From: Emiliania huxleyi CCMP1516
Lineage: Eukaryota
DNA length: 64,000 nucleotides
Direction of reading: 5' to 3'
Assembly: GCF_000372725.1 (NCBI RefSeq)
Contig: NW_005202428.1
Span: forward strand, 62,001 to 126,000
Both the position numbers and the translations under genes were made by a program. The stretch's first letter is position 1. Every line of letters starts with the position of its first letter. Positions 14,398 to 26,104 of the stretch are shown here, in pieces. The notes under the pieces were generated by a model. The model was not told the DNA's origin and made no database searches. It worked only from the letters and a program-made list of their open reading frames with translations.

Positions 14398-15300
14398 CTA
14401 CACTGCTCCCGCCTCATACACATCTTCCGCCCTCAGCACTCGCCCCTCTCCCGCGACCGGGAAGTTGCGCAGGTGTGGCATCACTTTTGGCAGGTCGCAC
14501 GGCGCGACCCCCATCCACTCCGCGATCGGCTGCCACATGCTCTCCCACGGCTCGGTCGGGATGATCGTGCCGCGGTCGTTGCGCGTGCGCTCGCCTTCGG
14601 GGCCGAGCCTCGACGGGTACTGCCCTAGGATCCGGCCGCCGTTGACCGCACCGCCGTATATCAGATGGTTCCCGCCCCACGCGTGCGTTGTCCCCCGCCC
14701 GTTACCGATGATCGTCCTTCCGAACTCGGAGAGGGTGATGACGGTCACCTTGTCCCACAGCCCCTGCGCCACCATCTCCTTCCGGAAGTCGTCGACCGAG
14801 TTGTCGATCATCGACATTATGCCGTCGCCCGGAGAGTCCATCGACGCGTGCGCGTCGACACCCCTCGTCCCCATCCAGAAGGCCGCGCGCTGCACGCCCG
14901 TCGCGCTGCGCGCCTTGATGACGCGCGCGACGGTGCGCAGCGCCATTGCAAATGTACAGCCGCAGCCCCCGCCAACATCGCAGCAGTCGTTGAAGGTCGT
15001 CGTCGTTGTTGCCGCGTCAATCGCATCGCCGAGTGTCTCCGCGTCCTGGATCGCCCGCCCCAGCACGCGCGAGTGCGTCTCGGCGAAGATCGAGCGCGAG
15101 GGCGCGGCCGTCAGGTTCTCGATGTGGCGCCAGAGCCGCTCGTACTCCGAAAGCCGGCGGATGTCGCCTCGCCTCGAGTCGATGGCGAGCGCGAGGCTGG
15201 GCCCTCCGGCAGCGCCGAGAAATCGGTCTCGTCGCCGAGGACACCGACCCACATGCTGCCTTGCAGGTAGGCCTCGGGATCGCTCCCCGTTTTGGCGACG
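14398..15300 (-). CDS. DUF1501-family C-terminal domain (probably a 5'-truncated fragment)
   Basis: GVDAH, LWDKVTVITLSEFGRT, GTTHAWGGNHLIYGGAVNGGRILGQYP, RGTIIPTEPWESMW and VMPHLRNF match the DUF1501 pattern as recalled. Confidence 0.75.
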   Translation of the reverse strand, partial: RRQNGERSRGLPARQHVGRCPRRRDRFLGAAGGPSLALAIDSRRGDIRRLSEYERLWRHIENLTAAPSRSIFAETHSRVLGRAIQDAETLGDAIDAATTTTTFNDCCDVGGGCGCTFAMALRTVARVIKARSATGVQRAAFWMGTRGVDAHASMDSPGDGIMSMIDNSVDDFRKEMVAQGLWDKVTVITLSEFGRTIIGNGRGTTHAWGGNHLIYGGAVNGGRILGQYPSRLGPEGERTRNDRGTIIPTEPWESMWQPIAEWMGVAPCDLPKVMPHLRNFPVAGEGRVLRAEDVYEAGAV

Positions 15301-15471
15301 AACCGTCGATCCCCTGCCTCGAGATAGACGAGGACGAGCGAGCGGTCCCGCCCGAAAAGGTAGACTCTCGTCGTCCGTATTGCAATGTCTAGCCTTGCTC
15401 TGCGGGGCAGCAGCGAGCAGGAGTCGGTCGGCCCGGCGCATGATTCTGCGTTTACTTGCACACTTTACGCG

Positions 15472-17182
15472 ATGAGTGCGGCTCCCGAGTACTCGTATCG
15501 CGATGATCACCGGCGGATTTTGCAGAGGTATGCACACATGCAGTCGGCGAGGGCGAACTTGCTTCTCCTCGCTGCCTGCTGGGCCTGCGCCTTGAGCTCG
15601 AGTGCCACGTTTCGTCCTTCTACTCCGGCCTCTTTGCTGCGGATCCCTCAGCTGCTGCATCATCTGCCGCCGTAGGCACCCTGCTCACCGCCGTGGGGCC
15701 GCTCGCCGCCACAGCAACTGGCTCGTCGATCGGCGCTGCCCCTCTGACTATCAGCACCTTTCTCGCAGGAGCAGCGCTCATATCGATCCCGTCGGCCGCG
15801 TTGTTCCGCCATTGCGGCCGCCTCAATGGATTTTTGATCGGCTGCGGGTTATGCGTTTGTTCTGGTGTTGCTGGTGCAATTGGGTTGATCTGCAATATTC
15901 CCTCGCTGATATTTATCTCCTCCTTCCTGGCTGGACTAGCCCAGGGCCTGTCTCACTTCTATAGATTCGCGGCATTGGAGGTTTGCTCGCCATCGCAGCG
16001 ACCATATGCGGTGACACTTGTCCTTTCCGGCGGCGTCATTGCAGCGGTCGCAGGGCCAAACCTGGCCCTCGCAACGAAAGAGCTTGGCCGAGTGTTTGGG
16101 GATTCGCGGCGCTACGAATTCCTCGGCGCGTTTGCCGGGATCAGCACCATCGGGGTCCTCAACGCGCTCTTCTCGGTCTGCGTCACGTTCCCAGCGTCTG
16201 CCGGCAAAACATCTGCGCCAGTCTCACAGAGCCTGCCTCGGCTGATGTGCGCGGATCCGCGATGCATCGCTGCTGTCGCCATCGCAGCACTCGCCCACAC
16301 CAGCATGGTCTCTCTCATGAGCCCTCTCGTGGTGGTCATGCACGACGGCTGCGAGGCCGACGCGTATCCCATCGGCAGTTGCTGGAGCGACACGTGCCAA
16401 GCGAGCCATCCTGCCGGTTGTTGGTTGTAGCTGCCAACAGCTGTCTCTGGCGTGAGAGTAGGTACTCGAGCCTCACGTTGCAACTCCACTTTCTGGCCAT
16501 GTTCGGCCCAGGGTTTGTCACGGGCCGCGTCATCTCGACGCTTGGCCCACAGCGGACCTCTTGTTGCGGCGCCTTCCTTCTGCTTATCGCAGCGGGCACG
16601 CTTGCGGCCGGAGGGGCGCTCGAAAATTTCATCGCTGGCATGACGCTGTGCGGGCTGGGTTGGAATCTGTGCTTCACTGCGGGCACATTGCTTCTCGCCT
16701 CGTGAGCTGCCCTCGACGGGTGTGCTGCTCACCACGAGCAGGGTTGAGCGGGGAGAGCACGTGTGTAGGTGCTACGAGGAGCGAGATGCTGCGCGAGTGC
16801 AGGCTCAGCCTAGCCAATGTGCCAACCCTACTTTGAAAGAAGGAGCGACCTCGGTCTCATTAGGGAGCCAACGATTTCATCATCTTCTTCTTTGCCGGCA
16901 TCGGCAGCACTGGGAGCGGCTACATCAATGGGATATACGGCTGGCGCTGCGTCGCTGTCGCCGTGGCGCATGAGCCTGCCCGAGCCCGGCCGCAGCACGG
17001 CCACTCATCTGAGCTCCCCCCCCTCGTAGGGCATCATCGTCCTGGCCTTGATTCTGGCCCTGGCTCTACTCATGTGCTTGCAGCCAGCAGGTCGGGCGGC
17101 TGGCGAGGTTAATCAGGTGGCGCCCGAACCGGCCCCCGTCACGCGCGCATTTAGCGGGAGCGGGAAGTTCGAGAGACAGTAG
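15472..17182 (+). CDS. MFS transporter (similar to bacterial RfnT-like MFS family), multi-exon
   Basis: TM exons contain HFYRFAALE, LVLSGGVIAAVAGPNLA, LQLHFLAMFGPGFVTGRVI, LCGLGWNLCFTAGT and ARVQ|GANDF. The last exon ends GKFERQ* at 17180-17182. Confidence 0.8.
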
Positions 17183-17628
17183 GGCGGTGACTGGGGGGGC
17201 TCGGGCCGGCTCACTTGTCTGATAGGCTTATGAAAAACTCAGACCGACTGTGACAGACGCGAGCCCACGAGCGACACACGAGTGGTGGGGCAAGGGGTGG
17301 CCGGGGGGCGGGGGCGCGGGGGCGGGGCGGGGGGTGCGCGGAGGGGCGAGGGAGGGTCGGGGGACAGACACGAACGGAGACCTGACGAGAAAGAAAGATA
17401 TATTCTGTGCGCCTGTCACTGTGCGATTCGGGGCCCGGGTTGTGCGTTTATGTGAAAGCGCACACCATCAATCAACAGGCTCACGCAGGGAGGCGCACGT
17501 GCGATTCAACCACGAATCCGCCTGGAAGACGTCAGCCCAACCGTGCCGTCAGAAGCTGTTCATTAGACCCCCTCCCCCCCCCCCATCCCGCGCGCGAACC
17601 TCTTCCCGCCGCCTCCTCTGCGGCCTCT

Positions 17629-20600
17629 TCATGCGGCGCGCGGGAGCGCCCCCTCCTCCTCGAAACGGCGCAGGTAGGTGCGGAGCAGCGCCGGCGTCAC
17701 CGTCGGGCAGGGGTGGCCACGCTCCGCCAGGTGGGCCATGTGTGCCTTGGAGCCCGTCGAGCCGAACGAGGGCGGAGCTGCCTTGAGAGCGCCGAGCAGC
17801 CCGCGCAGAGGGTTGGGGTGCGGCGCCGTCTCGGGCTCCGCCTCCAGCGCTGCCTGCAGCACGGACAGCCCCGGGCCCTCTCGGGCAATCTCGGGTCCTC
17901 TCGGGCAATCTCGGGCCGGTTCTCGGGCCGATCTCGGGCGATCTCGGGCCACTTCCTCCAGCGCGGCCTGCCGCTCGGCCAGCCTATATCTCCCCATATC
18001 TCCCCATATCTGCCTGCAGCTTGGCCAGCCACGCCTCGTAGCTCGGTGCGACGGGCACGTCGAGCTCCGTGAGAAGGTCTTCGTACGGAAGCGAGGCGCC
18101 GTTGTCGAGAGTGAAGCAGGGCGTCTCGCAGCGCTCGCGAGATGCCGCCCCGCCGGCCTCCTGAGTGGCGATGCCCCCGATGGCGCCCGCCACCCAGTCC
18201 ACCGGAGACATGTCCACCCGAACGCGCATGTCTGGCAGCGGCGGAGCGAGGCCGAGCAGTCGGAAGCCAACCAGGTACCGGTTGAGTGAGTCTCCAATGT
18301 TGCAGTCTCCCGTCACAGAGTGGCCGCTGATGGCGCCCGGTCGGAAGATTGAGTAGCGCGCCGGCGCGCCGGCGGAGCGGGCGGCGGCGTTGGCGTTCTC
18401 AATCAGCCGCTCGGCGACCCACTTGCCTTGCACGTACCCGTTGGCACCGTCCACCGCCGCCATCTCGATCCGTGGCGGCGCCTGCGCGTCGTGGCAGGCT
18501 CGCCGTCCGCAGACGCCGGCGGTGGAGACAAATGCGACGTGCACCGGCTTACGGTTGGCAGCCTCCAGGCCGTGCGCGAGCCGGATCGCACGAACAAGAG
18601 AGCCGACGTTCGCCTCCTTCAGGCCGGCGTACGCGGTGGCGTGGTTGACGGCGGCGGCGTTGTGGATCACCAGACGCACCGAGGCGAGGCTCGCCGCTAC
18701 CACCCCATCAGAGAGCCCGAACCCTGGCAGCGTCACGTCGCCGGCCAGGCAGCGCAGCTTCGGCGAGCGAGCGGCGTCGCTCCACACTCCCCGCGCGCGC
18801 AAGGCGGCAGAGACGCGCTCAGCGGCCGCGGCGTCGGAGGCGGCGCGGGCAACGCAGACGACCGCCGGGCCTTTGTCGGCGGCGAGGAGGGAGGCGAGCA
18901 GGTGTGTGCCGAGGAAGCCCGTGGCACCGGTGAGAAGGAGGGCGTCGGCCTCGCCAAGCGGCACCGCGGGCCCGAAAGGCACTCCTCCCATCCCGGCGGC
19001 CAACTCGGGCGGCACCGCCGCCTCCGCCTCCCAGTCGTACGCCGCCGCCGCCACTGCCTCGGTCGTCTGCACGAGGTTGAGGATGGCCGCCATGGTGACG
19101 CCGCGCAGCAGCGCCTTTGGCGGCACGCCGCACCCGAACCGCTTGTTCAGGCTGCCGGCGAGGCGCGCGGCGGTGAACGAGTCCAGCTGCAGCGGCTTCG
19201 CGCCGAGGCCAGACACGTCGACGCCAAGCAGCGACCCGACCGCCGCCTCCACGGCACACATGTCGGCGGCGTTACCGTCGCCGGCGTCCGTTGTGGCGGG
19301 CGGCGCGAGCCGCGTCAGCACGCCGTCCACAAAGCTGAAGGCGGCGCCGGCGTCGGCGGCGGAGAGCTTGGGCATGCCGAGCATGGCGGCGAGCTTGACG
19401 CGCTGCACCTTGCCCGTCGGCCCTTTCGGCACCTTGTCTGCGTACACGATCGCCTCGGGGAGCCACTGCATTGAGAGCTCGCCGGTGTCGAGCCCGAAGC
19501 GATTCAGCTGTGCAAGGCTGACCTCTGCGCCGGGGTCGAGGACCGCGATGGCGACCACCGACTCACCAAGCTCCTCGTGTGGCGAGCCGAAGGCGAAGAG
19601 GCTCGACACTCCGGGGCAGCGAAGCAGCACATTGTCGATGGCGACGGGCGCAATCTTTTCGCCGCCACGGTTGACCTGCTCCTTCTTGCGGCCGGTGAGG
19701 AAGAGGTAGCCCTCCTCGTCGAGATAGCCGAGGTCGCCCGTGCGGAAGAAGCCGGATGGCGTGAAGGACTCAGCGTTGGCGTCGGGCCGGTTGTGGTAGC
19801 CCTAAGAAGGAAAGGAGTGACGTGATTGTGCCTCTCGAAGCGGGCGGTCGCGAAGGTCTGCGCCTTGGTGACGTTGCGGCCGCGCACGCTCACCTCGCCC
19901 ACCTCACCGTTCGGCAGCGCCGCCTCGCCCTCCTCCGGGAGGATTGCAATCTCGACGTTGGTCCCCTTGCCCACCGAGCCCGCCTTGTGCGGCCCGCGGC
20001 TCGGCAGCGGGTTGGAGGAGATCTGGTGGGCCGCCTCTGTCATCGCATACGCCTCGAGCACCGGAGCGCCAAACTCCTTCTCGAGCGACTGCAGGACCGA
20101 AGGCGGGAGCGAGGCGGAGCAGGACCGGATGAAGCGCACCTGCGGCCGGCCCGCGGCCGCATAGCTGTCCAGCCCTTTGAGCAGAAGCTGCTGCATGGTC
20201 GGCACCGCCGTGTACCAGGTGGCGCCGCACGCCGCAATGTCGCGCCAAAAGATCTCGACGCGGAACCCGGCGCAGTTGGCCGGCAGGATGACCTCGCCGC
20301 CAGAATAGAGGGTCGAGAAGAGTGCCGACATGAGGCCGTGCACCTAAAAGAGAATCGTGCGAATCACAAGGGCGACAGCTAAGAAACACCGACATCGGCC
20401 CGGGCACATGAAAGAGCGGCATCACCAGGTAGCACTTGTCGGCGGCCGTGAGGTCGTAGGTCGCCGTGATGTTTGCCTACAGGAGAAGGGCGTGCGCCTC
20501 AAAAACGAAAGTGTCAACCGGCTGTCCGCCGCCGATGAGGTTGCCGTCGTCGCGAGCATGTTTGCGTGCGAGAGCGGCACCTTGTGAGGAATCACCCGAG

Positions 20601-21775
20601 ATCACCCGAGATCGCCCGAGATCACCCGAGATCACCCGAGATCGCCCGAAATTGCCCGAGACTGCCCGAGATTGCCCGAGATCGCCCGAGACTGCCCGAG
20701 AGCGCGTGGTGCGAGAGGGGCGCACCCCCTTCGGCTTGCCCGTCGTGCCGCTGGTGTGAAGAAACAGGGCCGTGTCTTCCGGCTGCGCCTCGGGGATCGT
20801 CACGCCGCCGTCGGCCACGGCGCATCGCGCGCGCGCAGCGACGCTCGTGCCGCTGGCCGACGTGGCGACGCCTATCCACGGCTCGAGGCGTGAGAAGAGA
20901 CTCGACACAGCTCGCATCGGCGGCCACATCTCGGCTGCATCTCGGCTGCACCTCGGCTGCACCTCGGCTGCACCTCGGCTGCACCTCGGCTGCACCTCGG
21001 CTGCCTCTCGGCTGCAACCCGGCTGCACCTCGGCTGCACCTCGGCTGCCTCTCGGCTGCACCTCGGCTGCCTCTCGGCTGCACCTCGGCAGCACCTCGGC
21101 CGCCTCTCGGCTGCCTCTCGGCTGCATCTCGGTTGTATCTCGGCTAGCCCTCTCCGAGCGTGGCGACGCCAACCTTGGCCGCAACCTCCTCGGCGAGAGC
21201 GTGGCCTTCGGTCGGCACGACCAGGAACTTGGACGAGATGTTGAGCATGTCGTACCTGCGTGGACACGTCAGGGAAATGTCCGCGACTGTTCCGGGAGGC
21301 GGCGCGGGCGGATTGGGGCGGTGTCGCACTCGAACTCGGCGGCAGCGTACGACGCGTTGAGCGGCGCGGCGGTGGCGCCGAGCCACGTGACGGCGAGGAA
21401 GGAGATCACCGACTCTATCTGAGGCGGGTGGAAGGCCGGGCCGAGGTGGTGTGGCGAGGCGACGGCGGCGGCGGTGGTGACAGTCTCTGGAGGAGCAGCG
21501 AGGCACAGCAATGGCCGCCGCGCTGTCCGCTTGCGTTGCCGCGGCAGCAGAGTGGCCGCCAGAGCTGTGACACGCACGCGGCGAGGGAGGCGGACCTGGT
21601 TCCGGAAGCAGAGCGAGACCACGTCACCTCGCAAGACTCCGGCTCGGGCTAGCGCGACGGACACGGCTTTGACGTCGGCGCGCAGCGCGCCGCGCGTAAA
21701 GACCGGGCCCTCCGGCGTCACGCGGATGGCGGGCGCGGCGTCGTCGCCGGCCAGCAGGCGTTCCAAAGTCGCCAT
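17629..21775 (-). CDS. NRPS-like A-T-R carboxylic acid reductase (oxalate-CoA-ligase-like adenylation domain + carrier protein + thioester reductase)
   Basis: A domain: ALFLHTSGTTGKPKGVPL, MPLFHVHGL, TWYTAVPTM, RFIRSCSASL, EAYAMTEAAHQ, FFRTGDLG, NRGGEKI, PKGPTGKVQR. T domain: LQLDSFTAARL. R domain: LLTGATGFLGTHLL, IHNAAAVNH, GYVQGKWVAE, RPGAISG. The end of A, T and most of R lie in one continuous reading frame (17984-19630). Confidence 0.88.
20929..21145. repeat. Intronic 10-11 bp tandem repeats (CTCGGCTGCAC family); relatives at 13039-13112, 20591-20700, 43128-43198, 57990-58075 and 58273-58415
   Basis: Directly visible degenerate arrays, located in or next to inferred introns. Confidence 0.9.
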
Positions 21776-22834: not shown

Positions 22835-23986
22835 ATGGGCTGCGCCGGGTCGACTCTGCGGTCGGGCGCGTCATTTGAGGACAGCCGCCTCGCGGCGATT
22901 GAGGATAGTCGCTTCCATGAGGTGGGCCATCACGCCCAGTTTGAGGACAGCCGCCTCGCGGCGATTGAGGATAGTCGCTTCCATGAGGTGGGCCATCACG
23001 CCCAGTTTGACGAAGGCGGTCGCTTCAAGCAGCTGCCGCCCGCCAATGATGATGCCAAGCTGCTCGTTGCCGATCACCCCTCACTGGGCGTGATACGGCT
23101 CGACTACGACTACCCGCCCGCCCTCGGTGACGTTGACCACCCGGGCTCCTTCTACTACGACGTGTTCTATCGTGTCGTGCCCGGCCTGACCTTTGAGTTA
23201 TGCCAGAGTGGCGAGTTGCCTGACGACGTCAAGCAGCGTTTCATTGACGCCATCACGTGGCTCGACGAGCAGGGTGTGGCGGGCATCACAGGCGACTGCG
23301 GCTTCTTCATGTACTTTCAGGCCCTCGCACGGTCCGTCACCAGCAAGCCCGTCTTCATGTCGTCGCTCTGCCAGCTGCCCGCCGTTGTATGTGCCTACGC
23401 CGCCGACGAGCAGATCGCGCTCTTCACCGCCAACGGCGAGTCGCTCAAGCCCATGCGTGAGATCATCAAGAAGGAGTGCGGCGTGGACCCGGACGACACG
23501 CGCTTCGTCATCGTCGGCTGCGAGGACGTGCCTGGCTTCGAGGCAGTCGCGAATGGTGACCGCGTCGATGTCGACTCCGTCGTGCCGCACCTCGTCCGCC
23601 TGGCAGAGGACACCGTTGCCAAACACGCGGGCACGGCCAAGCCGATCCGCGCCATCCTGTTTGAGTGCACGGAGCTTCCGCCCTACTCGGACGCCGTGCG
23701 CGCGGCGACCCGGCTGCCCGTCTTCGATAGCATCACGTGCTGCAACTCCATGCTCGCGTCGCTCATGGACAACCCGCGCTTCGGTGTCAACAACTGGCAC
23801 CTCTCCTGGGACGGCGCGCACACCGCTCACCGCTTTGGCGACAACGTGCCGCCGCATCTGAAGGGCAAACTCGTCAACAGGGAGCACCCCGAGAACATCG
23901 CAAGGTGGAACGCGAGTCTCGCGGAGCGGTCGTCGTTTTCTAGCGCTCAGCAAGAAAGCATCGGGCGAGGATCGCGCAAGCTGTGA
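22835..23986 (+). CDS. Alma2: Alma-family dimethylsulfoniopropionate (DMSP) lyase, Asp/Glu racemase superfamily, 383 aa, Alma2-like
   Basis: Intronless ORF starting at CACCATGG. It has the Alma signature motifs SLGVIRLDYDYPPALGDVDHPGSFYYDVFYRVVPGLTF, GITGDCGFF, KPVFMSSL, AILFECTELPPYSDAVRAATRLPVFD and DNPRFG, with both racemase-type catalytic Cys motifs. The MGCAGST N-terminus matches my recollection of E. huxleyi Alma2. Confidence 0.93.
   Translation: MGCAGSTLRSGASFEDSRLAAIEDSRFHEVGHHAQFEDSRLAAIEDSRFHEVGHHAQFDEGGRFKQLPPANDDAKLLVADHPSLGVIRLDYDYPPALGDVDHPGSFYYDVFYRVVPGLTFELCQSGELPDDVKQRFIDAITWLDEQGVAGITGDCGFFMYFQALARSVTSKPVFMSSLCQLPAVVCAYAADEQIALFTANGESLKPMREIIKKECGVDPDDTRFVIVGCEDVPGFEAVANGDRVDVDSVVPHLVRLAEDTVAKHAGTAKPIRAILFECTELPPYSDAVRAATRLPVFDSITCCNSMLASLMDNPRFGVNNWHLSWDGAHTAHRFGDNVPPHLKGKLVNREHPENIARWNASLAERSSFSSAQQESIGRGSRKL
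22874..23010 (+). repeat. Perfect in-frame 66-bp tandem duplication in the Alma 5' coding region
   Basis: 22874-22939 is identical to 22940-23005, encoding FEDSRLAAIEDSRFHEVGHHAQ twice. Confidence 0.95.
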
Positions 23987-24930: not shown

Positions 24931-25012
24931 ATTAAAAAGGCTGTGTGCTGCGCGGGGCCCGGCGAGCGACTAGCGAGCCAGCCTGCTAGTGTATGTGAAA
25001 TTCTCCTAGCCA

Positions 25013-26104
25013 ATGCACGATGGAGAGACGATGGAGAGTGACGGCGAGGCATGGTGGGAGCTCGACATGGACGAGGTGGGCCTCGGCACCGACGGCGTGC
25101 CGCTCCAGAGCCTCGAGGCGGCTGTGGTGCCGCCGCCGCGCTGGCCATTCAACCAGGCGAGTGGCTACGGCGCGCCGCTCGACTGCGCCGCGCGCTGCCG
25201 CGGTGGCGACCACGCGAGCGTGTGCGCGCTGCTCGCGCACTCGCCACGCCTGCTGGTGGCGCTCGGGCCGTGTGGACTGCTCAGCCTCGCGTCACGGCTG
25301 CTGCGGCAGTTGGTGGTGTACGATGTTCCCGGCATGCCGCTCGTGCGCGTCGGCGCCGCGCCGCGCCGAGTCGAGCGTGGTTCCGCGACGCGCTACTTTG
25401 GCGACGGCGGGTACGTGATGGTATCGCCGCGCGGCTGCGACGTGTGCTACTCGTACGGCGTCTCGCAGGAGGTGAGCTTCGACGCCGAGCTGGTGACGCA
25501 GCATGGGTTGAGGCTGGTGCGCCAATTCGATATGACGCTCGGCGGTGCCTACACGCCGCCGCTGCCGCAGTTTACCTTCTACGACGAGGGCCTCGGTGCG
25601 TCGCGCGACGCCGCGGCGCGCCTCGACACGCTCGAGAGCCACGTGCGCCGCTTCGGCGAGCTCGACGTGCGAAAGGTCCTGCAGTGCGACGTGGAGGGCG
25701 CAGAGTGGGAGGCGCTGTGGGCGTGCCCGGGCGCCGTGCTCGATTCATTCGATCACCTGGTCATCGAGTTTCACGGGCTGGATGAGCTGGCCTCCATGGG
25801 CTTCCACGCGGCGCTGCTCGAGAAGCTCAATGTTCACTTCGTCGTCGTGCACGTCCACGTCAACAACCACGGGCTCGACGTTGATGCTGACGCCGCCGCG
25901 CAAAAGTTCACCGAAGTGCTCGGCACGCTCGTGCCACGCACGCTCGAGGTGAGCTACCTCAGTCGCCGCCTCGTCCCCGATGCCGCGCGCGTTGCGAGGG
26001 CGGCCAAGGCGTTCCCGACGCCGCTTGACTATCCAAATGTGCACGCGCCGGACGTCATGCTCAACGTGTGGCCGTGGGCCCTCCCGGCCGCCGCCCAAAC
26101 GTGA
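25013..26104 (+). CDS. FkbM/Methyltransf_22-family SAM-dependent methyltransferase, intronless
   Basis: Motifs GDGGYVM, CYSYGVSQEVSFD, LQCDVEGAEWEAL, HLVIEFH, VHVHVNN, LEVSYL and PTPLDYPN. Confidence 0.82.
   Translation: MHDGETMESDGEAWWELDMDEVGLGTDGVPLQSLEAAVVPPPRWPFNQASGYGAPLDCAARCRGGDHASVCALLAHSPRLLVALGPCGLLSLASRLLRQLVVYDVPGMPLVRVGAAPRRVERGSATRYFGDGGYVMVSPRGCDVCYSYGVSQEVSFDAELVTQHGLRLVRQFDMTLGGAYTPPLPQFTFYDEGLGASRDAAARLDTLESHVRRFGELDVRKVLQCDVEGAEWEALWACPGAVLDSFDHLVIEFHGLDELASMGFHAALLEKLNVHFVVVHVHVNNHGLDVDADAAAQKFTEVLGTLVPRTLEVSYLSRRLVPDAARVARAAKAFPTPLDYPNVHAPDVMLNVWPWALPAAAQT

What the first reader, a model, noticed from the sequence alone, without database searches (positions are those of the whole stretch)
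17629..21775. Unusual carboxylic acid reductase with an oxalate-CoA-ligase-type A domain
Seen: the A-domain motifs (LHTSGTTGKPKGVPL, PLFHVHGL, WYTAVPTM, RFIRSCSASL, EAYAMTEAAHQ.SSNPLP) match the AAE3/Pcs60 short-chain acid CoA ligases, but are fused in frame to a carrier domain (LDSF) and a terminal thioester reductase. Established: A-T-R enzymes reduce acids to aldehydes, and fungal ATRR reduces glycine betaine, a structural analogue of DMSP. Inference: the substrate is a very small acid, for example oxalate to glyoxylate, acrylate to acrolein (a potent deterrent) or DMSP to its aldehyde.
Basis: partly seen in the sequence, partly recalled or inferred. Interest (0 to 1): 0.78.

Follow-up and report, generated by a model that had tools for sequence, protein, structure and literature searches.

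The report
Algal one-chain oxalate-reducing enzyme
A marine alga splices one gene that joins an enzyme of the oxalate-activating family to a carrier arm and a reductase, so it likely turns oxalate into glyoxylate in a single protein, a job known so far from two separate enzymes; the sulfur-compound (DMSP) role first proposed looks unlikely, and no activity has been measured.

Summary
A nine-exon minus-strand gene (21775-17629) encodes a 1037-aa adenylation-carrier-reductase (A-T-R) protein. All eight introns are seen spliced in public contigs, and one exon alone carries the end of A, T and most of R. RefSeq holds only a 398-aa 'acyl-CoA synthetase, partial' of Emiliania huxleyi. The A domain nests among eukaryotic oxalate-CoA ligases (AAE3/Pcs60) and keeps all 8 oxalate-pocket residues of Arabidopsis AAE3. 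T folds like a carrier protein with an invariant serine; R keeps its Thr/Tyr/Lys. Six more full-length relatives (46-68% identical) form one clade with it; none was found in prokaryotic genomes. Among bacterial relatives, 58 of 65 stand-alone ligases lie beside a PanE-like reductase (inferred oxalyl-CoA reductase type), against 0 of 14 fused ones. Best reading: a CoA-free oxalate reductase making glyoxylate, possibly glycolate (about 0.66). The gene lies head-to-head with an Alma DMSP-lyase gene, but the pocket is unchanged and unsuited to DMSP; acrylate or DMSP as substrate is about 0.08. Verdict: new variant of a known enzyme type, with a predicted reaction not found in my literature searches; untested.

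The parts
21596..21775 (-). exon 1 (start codon, A domain N-terminus, aa 1-60)
21330..21418 (-). exon 2 (after GT-AG intron 1, 177 nt)
   Evidence: joints in 8 of 8 runs
21155..21255 (-). exon 3 (after GT-AG intron 2, 74 nt; followed by a GA-AG intron of 283 nt that holds an 11-bp tandem array)
20726..20871 (-). exon 4 (P-loop of the A domain)
20545..20580 (-). exon 5 (36 nt; after GT-AG intron 4 that holds a 10-bp tandem array)
20408..20476 (-). exon 6 (after GC-AG intron 5)
19864..20343 (-). exon 7: core of the oxalate-type pocket (V208, H209, C282, S283, A307, M308, H313)
18014..19801 (-). exon 8: A C-subdomain (K498), linker, carrier domain and most of the reductase in one open frame
19058..19267 (-). 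carrier (T) domain, about aa 546-615; predicted phosphopantetheine serine S575 at 19178-19180
17647..18943 (-). terminal thioester reductase (R) domain, about aa 654-1031, interrupted by GC-AG intron 8; nucleotide-binding motif at 658-663, T794, Y823, K827
17629..17853 (-). exon 9 (end of R, stop codon; no SKL-type peroxisomal signal)
17522..17599 (-). 78-nt GT-AG intron in the 3' untranslated region
   Evidence: joint in 2 of 4 runs
22835..23986 (+). divergent neighbour: intronless Alma-family DMSP lyase gene (383 aa; 5 residues from 'DMSP lyase 6'; probably Alma3, inferred); start codons 1060 nt apart; a functional link is not shown

Best explanation
The gene encodes one spliced 1037-aa A-T-R protein whose A domain belongs to the oxalate-CoA ligase clade, and it likely works as a CoA-free oxalate reductase: A would make oxalyl-AMP from oxalate and ATP, would hand the oxalyl group to a predicted phosphopantetheine arm on Ser575, and R would likely reduce that thioester with NAD(P)H to release glyoxylate. 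Shown: gene structure, splicing, domain order, clade, pocket and catalytic residues, carrier fold of the model. Inferred: substrate (about 0.8), use of the arm and reduction (about 0.85), stop at glyoxylate rather than glycolate (about 0.65 of those cases), cytosolic location, and a role in salvaging oxalate carbon or keeping oxalate away from calcium (speculative).
For: (1) Best solved relatives of A by sequence and fold are AAE3 (430 bits; TM 0.93, 44% identity), grass pea OCS and yeast Pcs60; the next family, malonyl-CoA ligase, scores 210 bits. (2) The eight pocket residues listed for AtAAE3, of which S289 and H319 are said to be kept only in oxalyl-CoA synthetases (PMC8905533, passages), map to V208, H209, C282, S283, A307, M308, H313, K498: 8 of 8 identical; 6 of 7 full-length family members keep all eight, P0002 has Ser for the Cys. 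(3) In a 62-row A-domain tree the ten rows I labelled as family, plus one unlabelled partial sequence, form one branch (SH-aLRT 100) among eukaryotic oxalate-ligase-like proteins, far from NRPS, Lys2 and mycobacterial CAR A domains. (4) The carrier serine column is Ser in all 13 of 14 aligned rows that reach it, and several relatives have two carrier domains, each with the serine; the isolated domain's model matches only carrier proteins in all listed rows. (5) R keeps T/S, Y and K in all 7 full-length members. (6) Gene neighbours: of 79 prokaryote-type loci, 58 of 65 stand-alone ligases have a PanE-like gene within 1.5 kb, 0 of 14 tail-fused ones do; 20 such genes pass NF005089 independently; relatives of that gene lie by oxlT and gcl, or by gcl, frc and a TPP enzyme, in 2 of 3 annotated regions read; panE2 is described as oxalyl-CoA reductase giving glyoxylate (PMC12686821, PMC8411744, passages). 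The fusion thus supplies in one chain the step that stand-alone relatives seem to get from a neighbour. (7) The same ligase clade is also fused to TPP enzymes (P0202, P0216, P0225), as expected for oxalyl-CoA decarboxylation (inference).
Against: No activity is measured. The PanE-like neighbours were not aligned to PanE2 itself, so that label is inferred; the 65 loci are not independent and 8 of them seeded the profile (50 of 57 without them). One of three annotated regions showed no oxalate gene. The closest solved R domain is MxaA (110 bits, against 82 for a CAR), recalled as a four-electron reductase, so the product may be glycolate. Grass pea OCS also activates glyoxylate at 1/61 of the oxalate efficiency, so the expected product could re-enter the enzyme. 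I found no report of an oxalate pool in haptophytes (20 of 487 hits listed). The tree is the quick one without bootstrap, and the deeper forks around the family are open. No neighbour in this window points to oxalate.
Confidence: 0.66

Rival explanations
1. It is an A-T-R reductase for another small planar acid (glyoxylate, oxamate, pyruvate or similar), or it makes an oxalyl-derived building block for an unknown metabolite instead of feeding central metabolism.
For: AAE3-type pockets accept glyoxylate and, weakly, malonate. Many bacterial multi-domain NRPS-like proteins begin with this A type plus a carrier, so it is used in assembly lines. The family branch is long (0.79 changes per column), leaving room for a shift.
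Against: First-shell residues are unchanged across a family only 46-68% identical; there is no condensation domain and no biosynthetic neighbour among the frames scanned.
Confidence: 0.15
2. It handles the products of the neighbouring Alma lyase: acrylate is activated and reduced to acrolein (a deterrent), or DMSP or MMPA is reduced to its aldehyde.
For: The gene lies head-to-head with an Alma-family gene, start codons 1060 nt apart; both annotated copies carry neighbouring accession numbers (XP_005786165 by Alma6 XP_005786164; XP_005793891 near Alma3 XP_005793893); contigs cover both genes in 7 of 8 runs laid. Acrylate is small and planar, and was not among the substrates tested in the grass pea paper.
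Against: The two copies encode an identical 398-aa annotated protein and are probably one locus in two haplotypes, so they are one observation. The pocket has no change from plant oxalate ligases. It lacks the aromatic cage and glutamate that ATRR uses for onium groups, and ATRR itself rejects DMSP. Conserved linkage to Alma in other species could not be tested.
Confidence: 0.08
3. A still uses CoA, making oxalyl-CoA; R reduces free oxalyl-CoA (as fatty acyl-CoA reductases of the same Pfam family do) or is idle, and the carrier domain is only a spacer.
For: The carrier is degenerate: below Pfam's cut-off in this protein, not reported for P0127 or P0167 at E 0.001, Foldseek E-values 0.03 or weaker.
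Against: The serine motif is kept throughout the family and in duplicated carriers; it sits at the start of helix II in both models; P0004 and P0168 pass Pfam's PP-binding cut-off.
Confidence: 0.08

Closest known systems
AAE3 / Pcs60 (FAT2) oxalate-CoA ligases (Arabidopsis PDB 5IE0, 5IE3; grass pea 6QJZ; yeast 8AFF)
   Same: A domain 44% identical to AtAAE3, TM 0.93; all eight oxalate-pocket residues identical; same clade.
   Different: They are stand-alone proteins of about 510 aa that transfer oxalate to CoA; this one is fused to a carrier and a reductase and has no SKL-type tail (27 of the first 40 stand-alone relatives end in SKL or AKL, 0 of 9 fused ones).
Oxalyl-CoA synthetase plus oxalyl-CoA reductase PanE2 (Methylobacterium extorquens; rebuilt in yeast as FAT2 + panE2)
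   Same: Same predicted net reaction, oxalate to glyoxylate through an oxalyl thioester; bacterial relatives of this A domain mostly sit beside a PanE-like gene.
   Different: Two proteins, CoA as carrier, a ketopantoate-reductase-family reductase; here one chain, a tethered arm and an NRPS-type short-chain reductase.
Carboxylic acid reductases and NRPS-like A-T-R enzymes (mycobacterial CAR PDB 5MSC; Lys2; MxaA reductase domain PDB 4U7W)
   Same: A-T-R order, no condensation domain, R with the same nucleotide-binding and catalytic residues.
   Different: A comes from the CoA-ligase clade for oxalate, not from CAR, Lys2 or NRPS A domains; R is about 35% or less identical to prokaryotic R domains found.
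ATRR glycine betaine reductase (fungi) and PtNRPS1 (diatom, tryptophan to tryptophanol)
   Same: Eukaryotic single-module NRPS-like reductases of small metabolites (passages; abstract start).
   Different: Both are A-T-R1-R2 and make alcohols; ATRR binds a cation in an aromatic cage and rejects DMSP; this protein has one R and an anion pocket.

Membership tests
NRPS-like A-T-R reductases (CAR type, broad sense) | A, T and R in one polypeptide, no condensation domain | tested here: met
NRPS-like A-T-R reductases (CAR type, broad sense) | Carrier domain: four-helix fold with a conserved serine at the start of helix II | tested here: met
   models; all listed fold matches are carrier proteins though each has E 0.03 or weaker; serine kept in 13 of 13 rows that cover it; Pfam score 20.6 against cut-off 20.8
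NRPS-like A-T-R reductases (CAR type, broad sense) | Serine carries phosphopantetheine | not testable with these tools
   needs mass spectrometry
NRPS-like A-T-R reductases (CAR type, broad sense) | R domain with nucleotide-binding glycine motif and Thr/Ser-Tyr-Lys catalytic set | tested here: met
   motif at 658-663, T794, Y823, K827; TIGR01746 205 bits, under its cut-off of 213; two relatives pass it
NRPS-like A-T-R reductases (CAR type, broad sense) | ATP- and NAD(P)H-dependent reduction that stops at the aldehyde | not testable with these tools
   closest solved R is MxaA, recalled as a four-electron reductase
Bacterial carboxylic acid reductases (Nocardia/Mycobacterium family, narrow sense) | A domain of the CAR clade | tested here: not met
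   A groups with oxalate ligases; the mycobacterial CAR row aligned over only 148 residues and fell outside; the CAR match covers R only
AAE3/Pcs60 oxalate-CoA ligases | A domain inside the clade | tested here: met
AAE3/Pcs60 oxalate-CoA ligases | Oxalate pocket V215, H216, C288, S289, A313, M314, H319, K500 (AtAAE3 numbering) | tested here: met
   8 of 8 identical
AAE3/Pcs60 oxalate-CoA ligases | Stand-alone ligase of about 510 aa | tested here: not met
   fused to T and R
AAE3/Pcs60 oxalate-CoA ligases | Forms oxalyl-CoA | not testable with these tools
   needs assay
ATRR glycine betaine reductases | A-T-R1-R2 with a second, aldehyde-reducing domain | tested here: not met
   one R, protein ends at 1037
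ATRR glycine betaine reductases | Aromatic cage plus glutamate for an onium head group | tested here: not met
   the eight pocket positions hold no aromatic cage or acidic residue; ATRR itself was not aligned

The most novel reading that the evidence does not exclude
A eukaryote-only family of single-chain, CoA-independent oxalate reductases, made by fusing a peroxisomal-type oxalate ligase to a carrier-reductase unit, gives a bloom-forming calcifying alga and other microbial eukaryotes a way to assimilate oxalate back into glyoxylate, a route so far described for bacteria with two other enzymes.
Probability: 0.5. Interest if true: 0.75.

Novelty: new variant of a known kind. Interest (0 to 1): 0.58.

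Why it matters
If right, it is a native oxalate reductase in one polypeptide, and a reductive oxalate-salvage route in eukaryotes, where oxalate ligases are described as feeding decarboxylation or oxalyl transfer (PMC8905533). It sits unannotated in a model alga because the reference gene model stops after A. It is easy to test, and would be a one-gene replacement for the ligase-plus-PanE2 pair used in engineered glycolate routes (PMC12686821) and a candidate oxalate-removing enzyme. It also shows a CoA ligase recruited onto a carrier domain with its pocket unchanged. If the DMSP link were true after all, it would tie acrylate fate to the lyase gene next door.

Tried and rejected
First gene model with a GC donor for intron 3: two residues too long, corrected by the contigs. 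No whole genome is held, so a stand-alone AAE3, a phosphopantetheinyl transferase and downstream glyoxylate enzymes in this organism were not looked for. No holder is on record as RNA; depth cannot rank genes and was not used. The 'Bacteroidota' label of P0166 (4-kb contig) is doubtful: no GTDB genome encodes a close relative, and a scan with R-domain patterns gave 20 generic R domains of 27-36% identity, 0 of 20 with oxalate-type A motifs; both scans are pattern-limited. No R-domain match in 79 prokaryote-type metagenome loci. No Alma-like sequence in 103 loci held, uninformative because nearly all are prokaryotic. Looking for oxc in the records behind the metagenome loci was not possible. 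ESM Atlas gave only generic A-T-R clusters. Pfam scans of 82 open frames of the window (9 + 73, chosen from those of about 180 aa or more) found no oxalate or glyoxylate gene. Earlier scan notes: nothing by sequence, place or words; one search returned Alma-related notes from other genomes that do not bear on this gene. Literature: 0 papers for 'oxalyl-CoA reductase + glyoxylate + oxalate + carboxylic acid reductase', 0 for the six accession numbers, 6 for oxalate reductase / oxalyl-carrier terms, none about such an enzyme by title and abstract start. The wide structural search of the carrier domain never ran. No complex prediction was run.
Full report
Observation. The region is a eukaryotic, GC-rich gene on the minus strand. 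Contigs of eight public runs from five studies were laid on it. Six introns are skipped in 8 of 8 runs, intron 3 in 6 of 8 and intron 8 in 5 of 8. Four introns are GT-AG, three GC-AG and one GA-AG; the last corrected my model to 1037 aa. One 2908-nt contig runs from exon 1 to exon 8, and a 3187-nt one covers at least exons 7-9. Exon 8 by itself holds the end of A, the carrier and most of R. A database protein of the same length, P0127, differs at 22 positions and was used for further work. Its cluster includes XP_005786165/XP_005793891, a 398-aa 'acyl-CoA synthetase, partial' of Emiliania huxleyi CCMP1516: the reference annotation misses T and R.

The A domain. Its best solved relatives are Arabidopsis AAE3 (430 bits), grass pea OCS (415) and yeast Pcs60 (352); malonyl-CoA ligase follows at 210. 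The AlphaFold model (mean pLDDT 92) matches AAE3 at TM 0.93. PMC8905533 (passages and section 8 read) lists eight residues that shape the oxalate pocket of AAE3 and says that S289 and H319 are kept only in oxalyl-CoA synthetases; all eight are identical here. That paper's enzyme prefers oxalate, takes glyoxylate 61-fold worse and malonate about four orders worse, and not glycolate, lactate or succinate; acrylate was not tested. The closest stand-alone proteins are eukaryotic, about 50% identical, several named oxalate-CoA ligase; 118 of 119 keep the three pocket motifs I scored.

The T and R domains. The carrier is degenerate in sequence (20.6 bits against a Pfam cut-off of 20.8), but both models give four helices with S575 at the start of helix II, and all listed fold matches are acyl or peptidyl carrier proteins, each weak alone. 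R is an NRPS-type thioester reductase (PF07993 163 bits; TIGR01746 205, under its cut-off) with T794, Y823 and K827; its closest solved relative is MxaA, then a PKS R domain and a CAR.

The family. Searches found six more full-length A-T-R or A-T-T-R proteins, 46-68% identical, and several partial ones; among the best 150 representatives of 1.84 billion, three have both the pocket and an R domain. In a quick A-domain tree of 62 rows that I chose from these hits, the ten rows labelled as family (one, P0061, is a partial without T or R and was labelled by similarity) and one unlabelled partial form a single branch, SH-aLRT 100, among eukaryotic oxalate-ligase-like proteins; deeper forks are open and there is no bootstrap. 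The hosts are mostly unnamed; intron read-throughs in several partials suggest eukaryotes (inference). One member is labelled Bacteroidota, on a 4-kb contig, but two scans of GTDB genomes found no close relative. None of nine fused members ends in SKL or AKL, against 27 of 40 stand-alone relatives, which suggests a move out of the peroxisome (inference).

Gene neighbours of relatives. A metagenome scan with A-domain patterns kept the best 80 of 548 loci; one is this gene, 79 are prokaryote-type. Of these, 65 are stand-alone ligases and 58 have a PanE-like reductase gene within 1.5 kb (52 of 56 with enough downstream DNA); 14 carry a C-terminal extension and none has one. Eight loci seeded the profile; without them 50 of 57. 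NCBIfam put 20 of 42 hand-picked neighbours in NF005089; one locus has an oxalate/formate antiporter and one a malate synthase next to the ligase. Of three annotated plasmid regions around relatives of that reductase, one has oxlT and gcl, one gcl, frc and a TPP enzyme, and one no oxalate gene. PanE2 is described as the oxalyl-CoA reductase that gives glyoxylate (PMC12686821, PMC8411744; passages); the primary paper was not available, and I did not align to PanE2. So the usual bacterial partner of this ligase appears to reduce the oxalyl thioester, and the algal fusion adds a different reductase for what is likely the same step.

The neighbour. A 383-aa intronless Alma-family gene starts 1060 nt upstream on the other strand; it is five residues from 'DMSP lyase 6'. 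PMC11347835 (passages) gives Alma3 as XP_005793893 and Alma6 as XP_005786164, next to the two accessions of the partial ligase; the window's copy is probably Alma3 (inference). This is the only support for a DMSP link. Against it, the pocket shows no change, ATRR has another architecture and pocket and rejects DMSP (bioRxiv 10.1101/559534, passages), and the two copies are probably haplotypes. The spacer holds repeated sequence, and linkage in other species could not be tested.

Mechanism. Most likely oxalate + ATP gives oxalyl-AMP, then oxalyl-S-pantetheinyl-T, then glyoxylate + AMP + PPi + NAD(P)+ (0.66 for oxalate reduction, with glycolate a possible end product). Rivals: another small planar acid or a biosynthetic use (0.15); acrylate or DMSP (0.08); a CoA-dependent enzyme with an idle carrier (0.08). 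The physiological role, salvage of oxalate carbon or protection of calcium handling, is speculation; sources of oxalate in this alga were not found in the 20 of 487 papers listed.

Novelty. A-T-R reductases, oxalate ligases and the oxalate-to-glyoxylate reaction are each known. Their combination in one chain was not found in searches (20 of 48 listed), 66 and 92, which cover only openly licensed papers and preprints. PMC7073580 (passages) counts eight A-plus-carrier genes in E. huxleyi without assigning substrates. bioRxiv 10.1101/161257 (passages) was used only for Alma as an Asp/Glu racemase-family lyase. The diatom PtNRPS1 paper was seen as an abstract start only. I read no supplements; transcriptome or proteome tables of the Alma papers might list this gene. 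Recalled, from no call: MxaA as a four-electron reductase, SKL/AKL as a peroxisomal signal, gcl/frc/TPP enzyme as oxalate-glyoxylate pathway genes. Verdict: real, expressed, mis-annotated; a new variant of a known enzyme type with a specific, testable predicted reaction; interest 0.58.

Noticed in passing
window 22835-23986 +: Alma-family DMSP lyase gene with a 66-bp tandem duplication near its 5' end (22874-23010, 2.1 copies); covered by contigs in 7 of 8 runs laid.
   Followed up: partly
window 21154-20872 -: A GA-AG intron, supported by joints in 6 of 8 runs; three other introns use GC donors; three introns hold 10-11-bp tandem arrays whose contigs reach very high depth, so they are probably genome-wide repeats.
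   Followed up: partly
proteins P0202 (Chlorokybus), P0216, P0225: Oxalate-type ligase fused to a thiamine-diphosphate enzyme, a likely ligase-decarboxylase fusion for oxalate breakdown.
   Followed up: no
proteins P0194, P0197, P0199, P0200 and many A-T and A-T-TE hits; loci L008, L017, L072, L076, L079, L080: Bacterial NRPS-like proteins that begin with an oxalate-type A domain plus carrier; P0194 has four such A domains in tandem before a C-A-T-TE module. They suggest uncharacterised oxalyl-primed assembly lines.
   Followed up: no
metagenome loci L002-L080: Tight linkage of bacterial oxalate-type ligases with NF005089 'ketopantoate reductase' genes suggests that this family is widely misnamed and is mostly oxalyl-CoA reductase.
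   Followed up: partly
window 15507 to about 17100 +: MFS transporter gene convergent with the A-T-R gene (PF07690); little contig cover; substrate unknown.
   Followed up: no
window 14398-15684 -: DUF1501 gene, covered by a contig in one of four runs.
   Followed up: no
window 25010-26104 +: 364-aa open frame without a Pfam match, covered by contigs in 4 of 4 runs; by eye it resembles FkbM-type methyltransferases (recalled, untested).
   Followed up: no
protein P0166 (MEO1478201.1): Labelled Bacteroidota but 68% identical to the algal protein, on a 4-kb contig, with no GTDB relative: probably a eukaryotic contig in a bacterial bin.
   Followed up: partly
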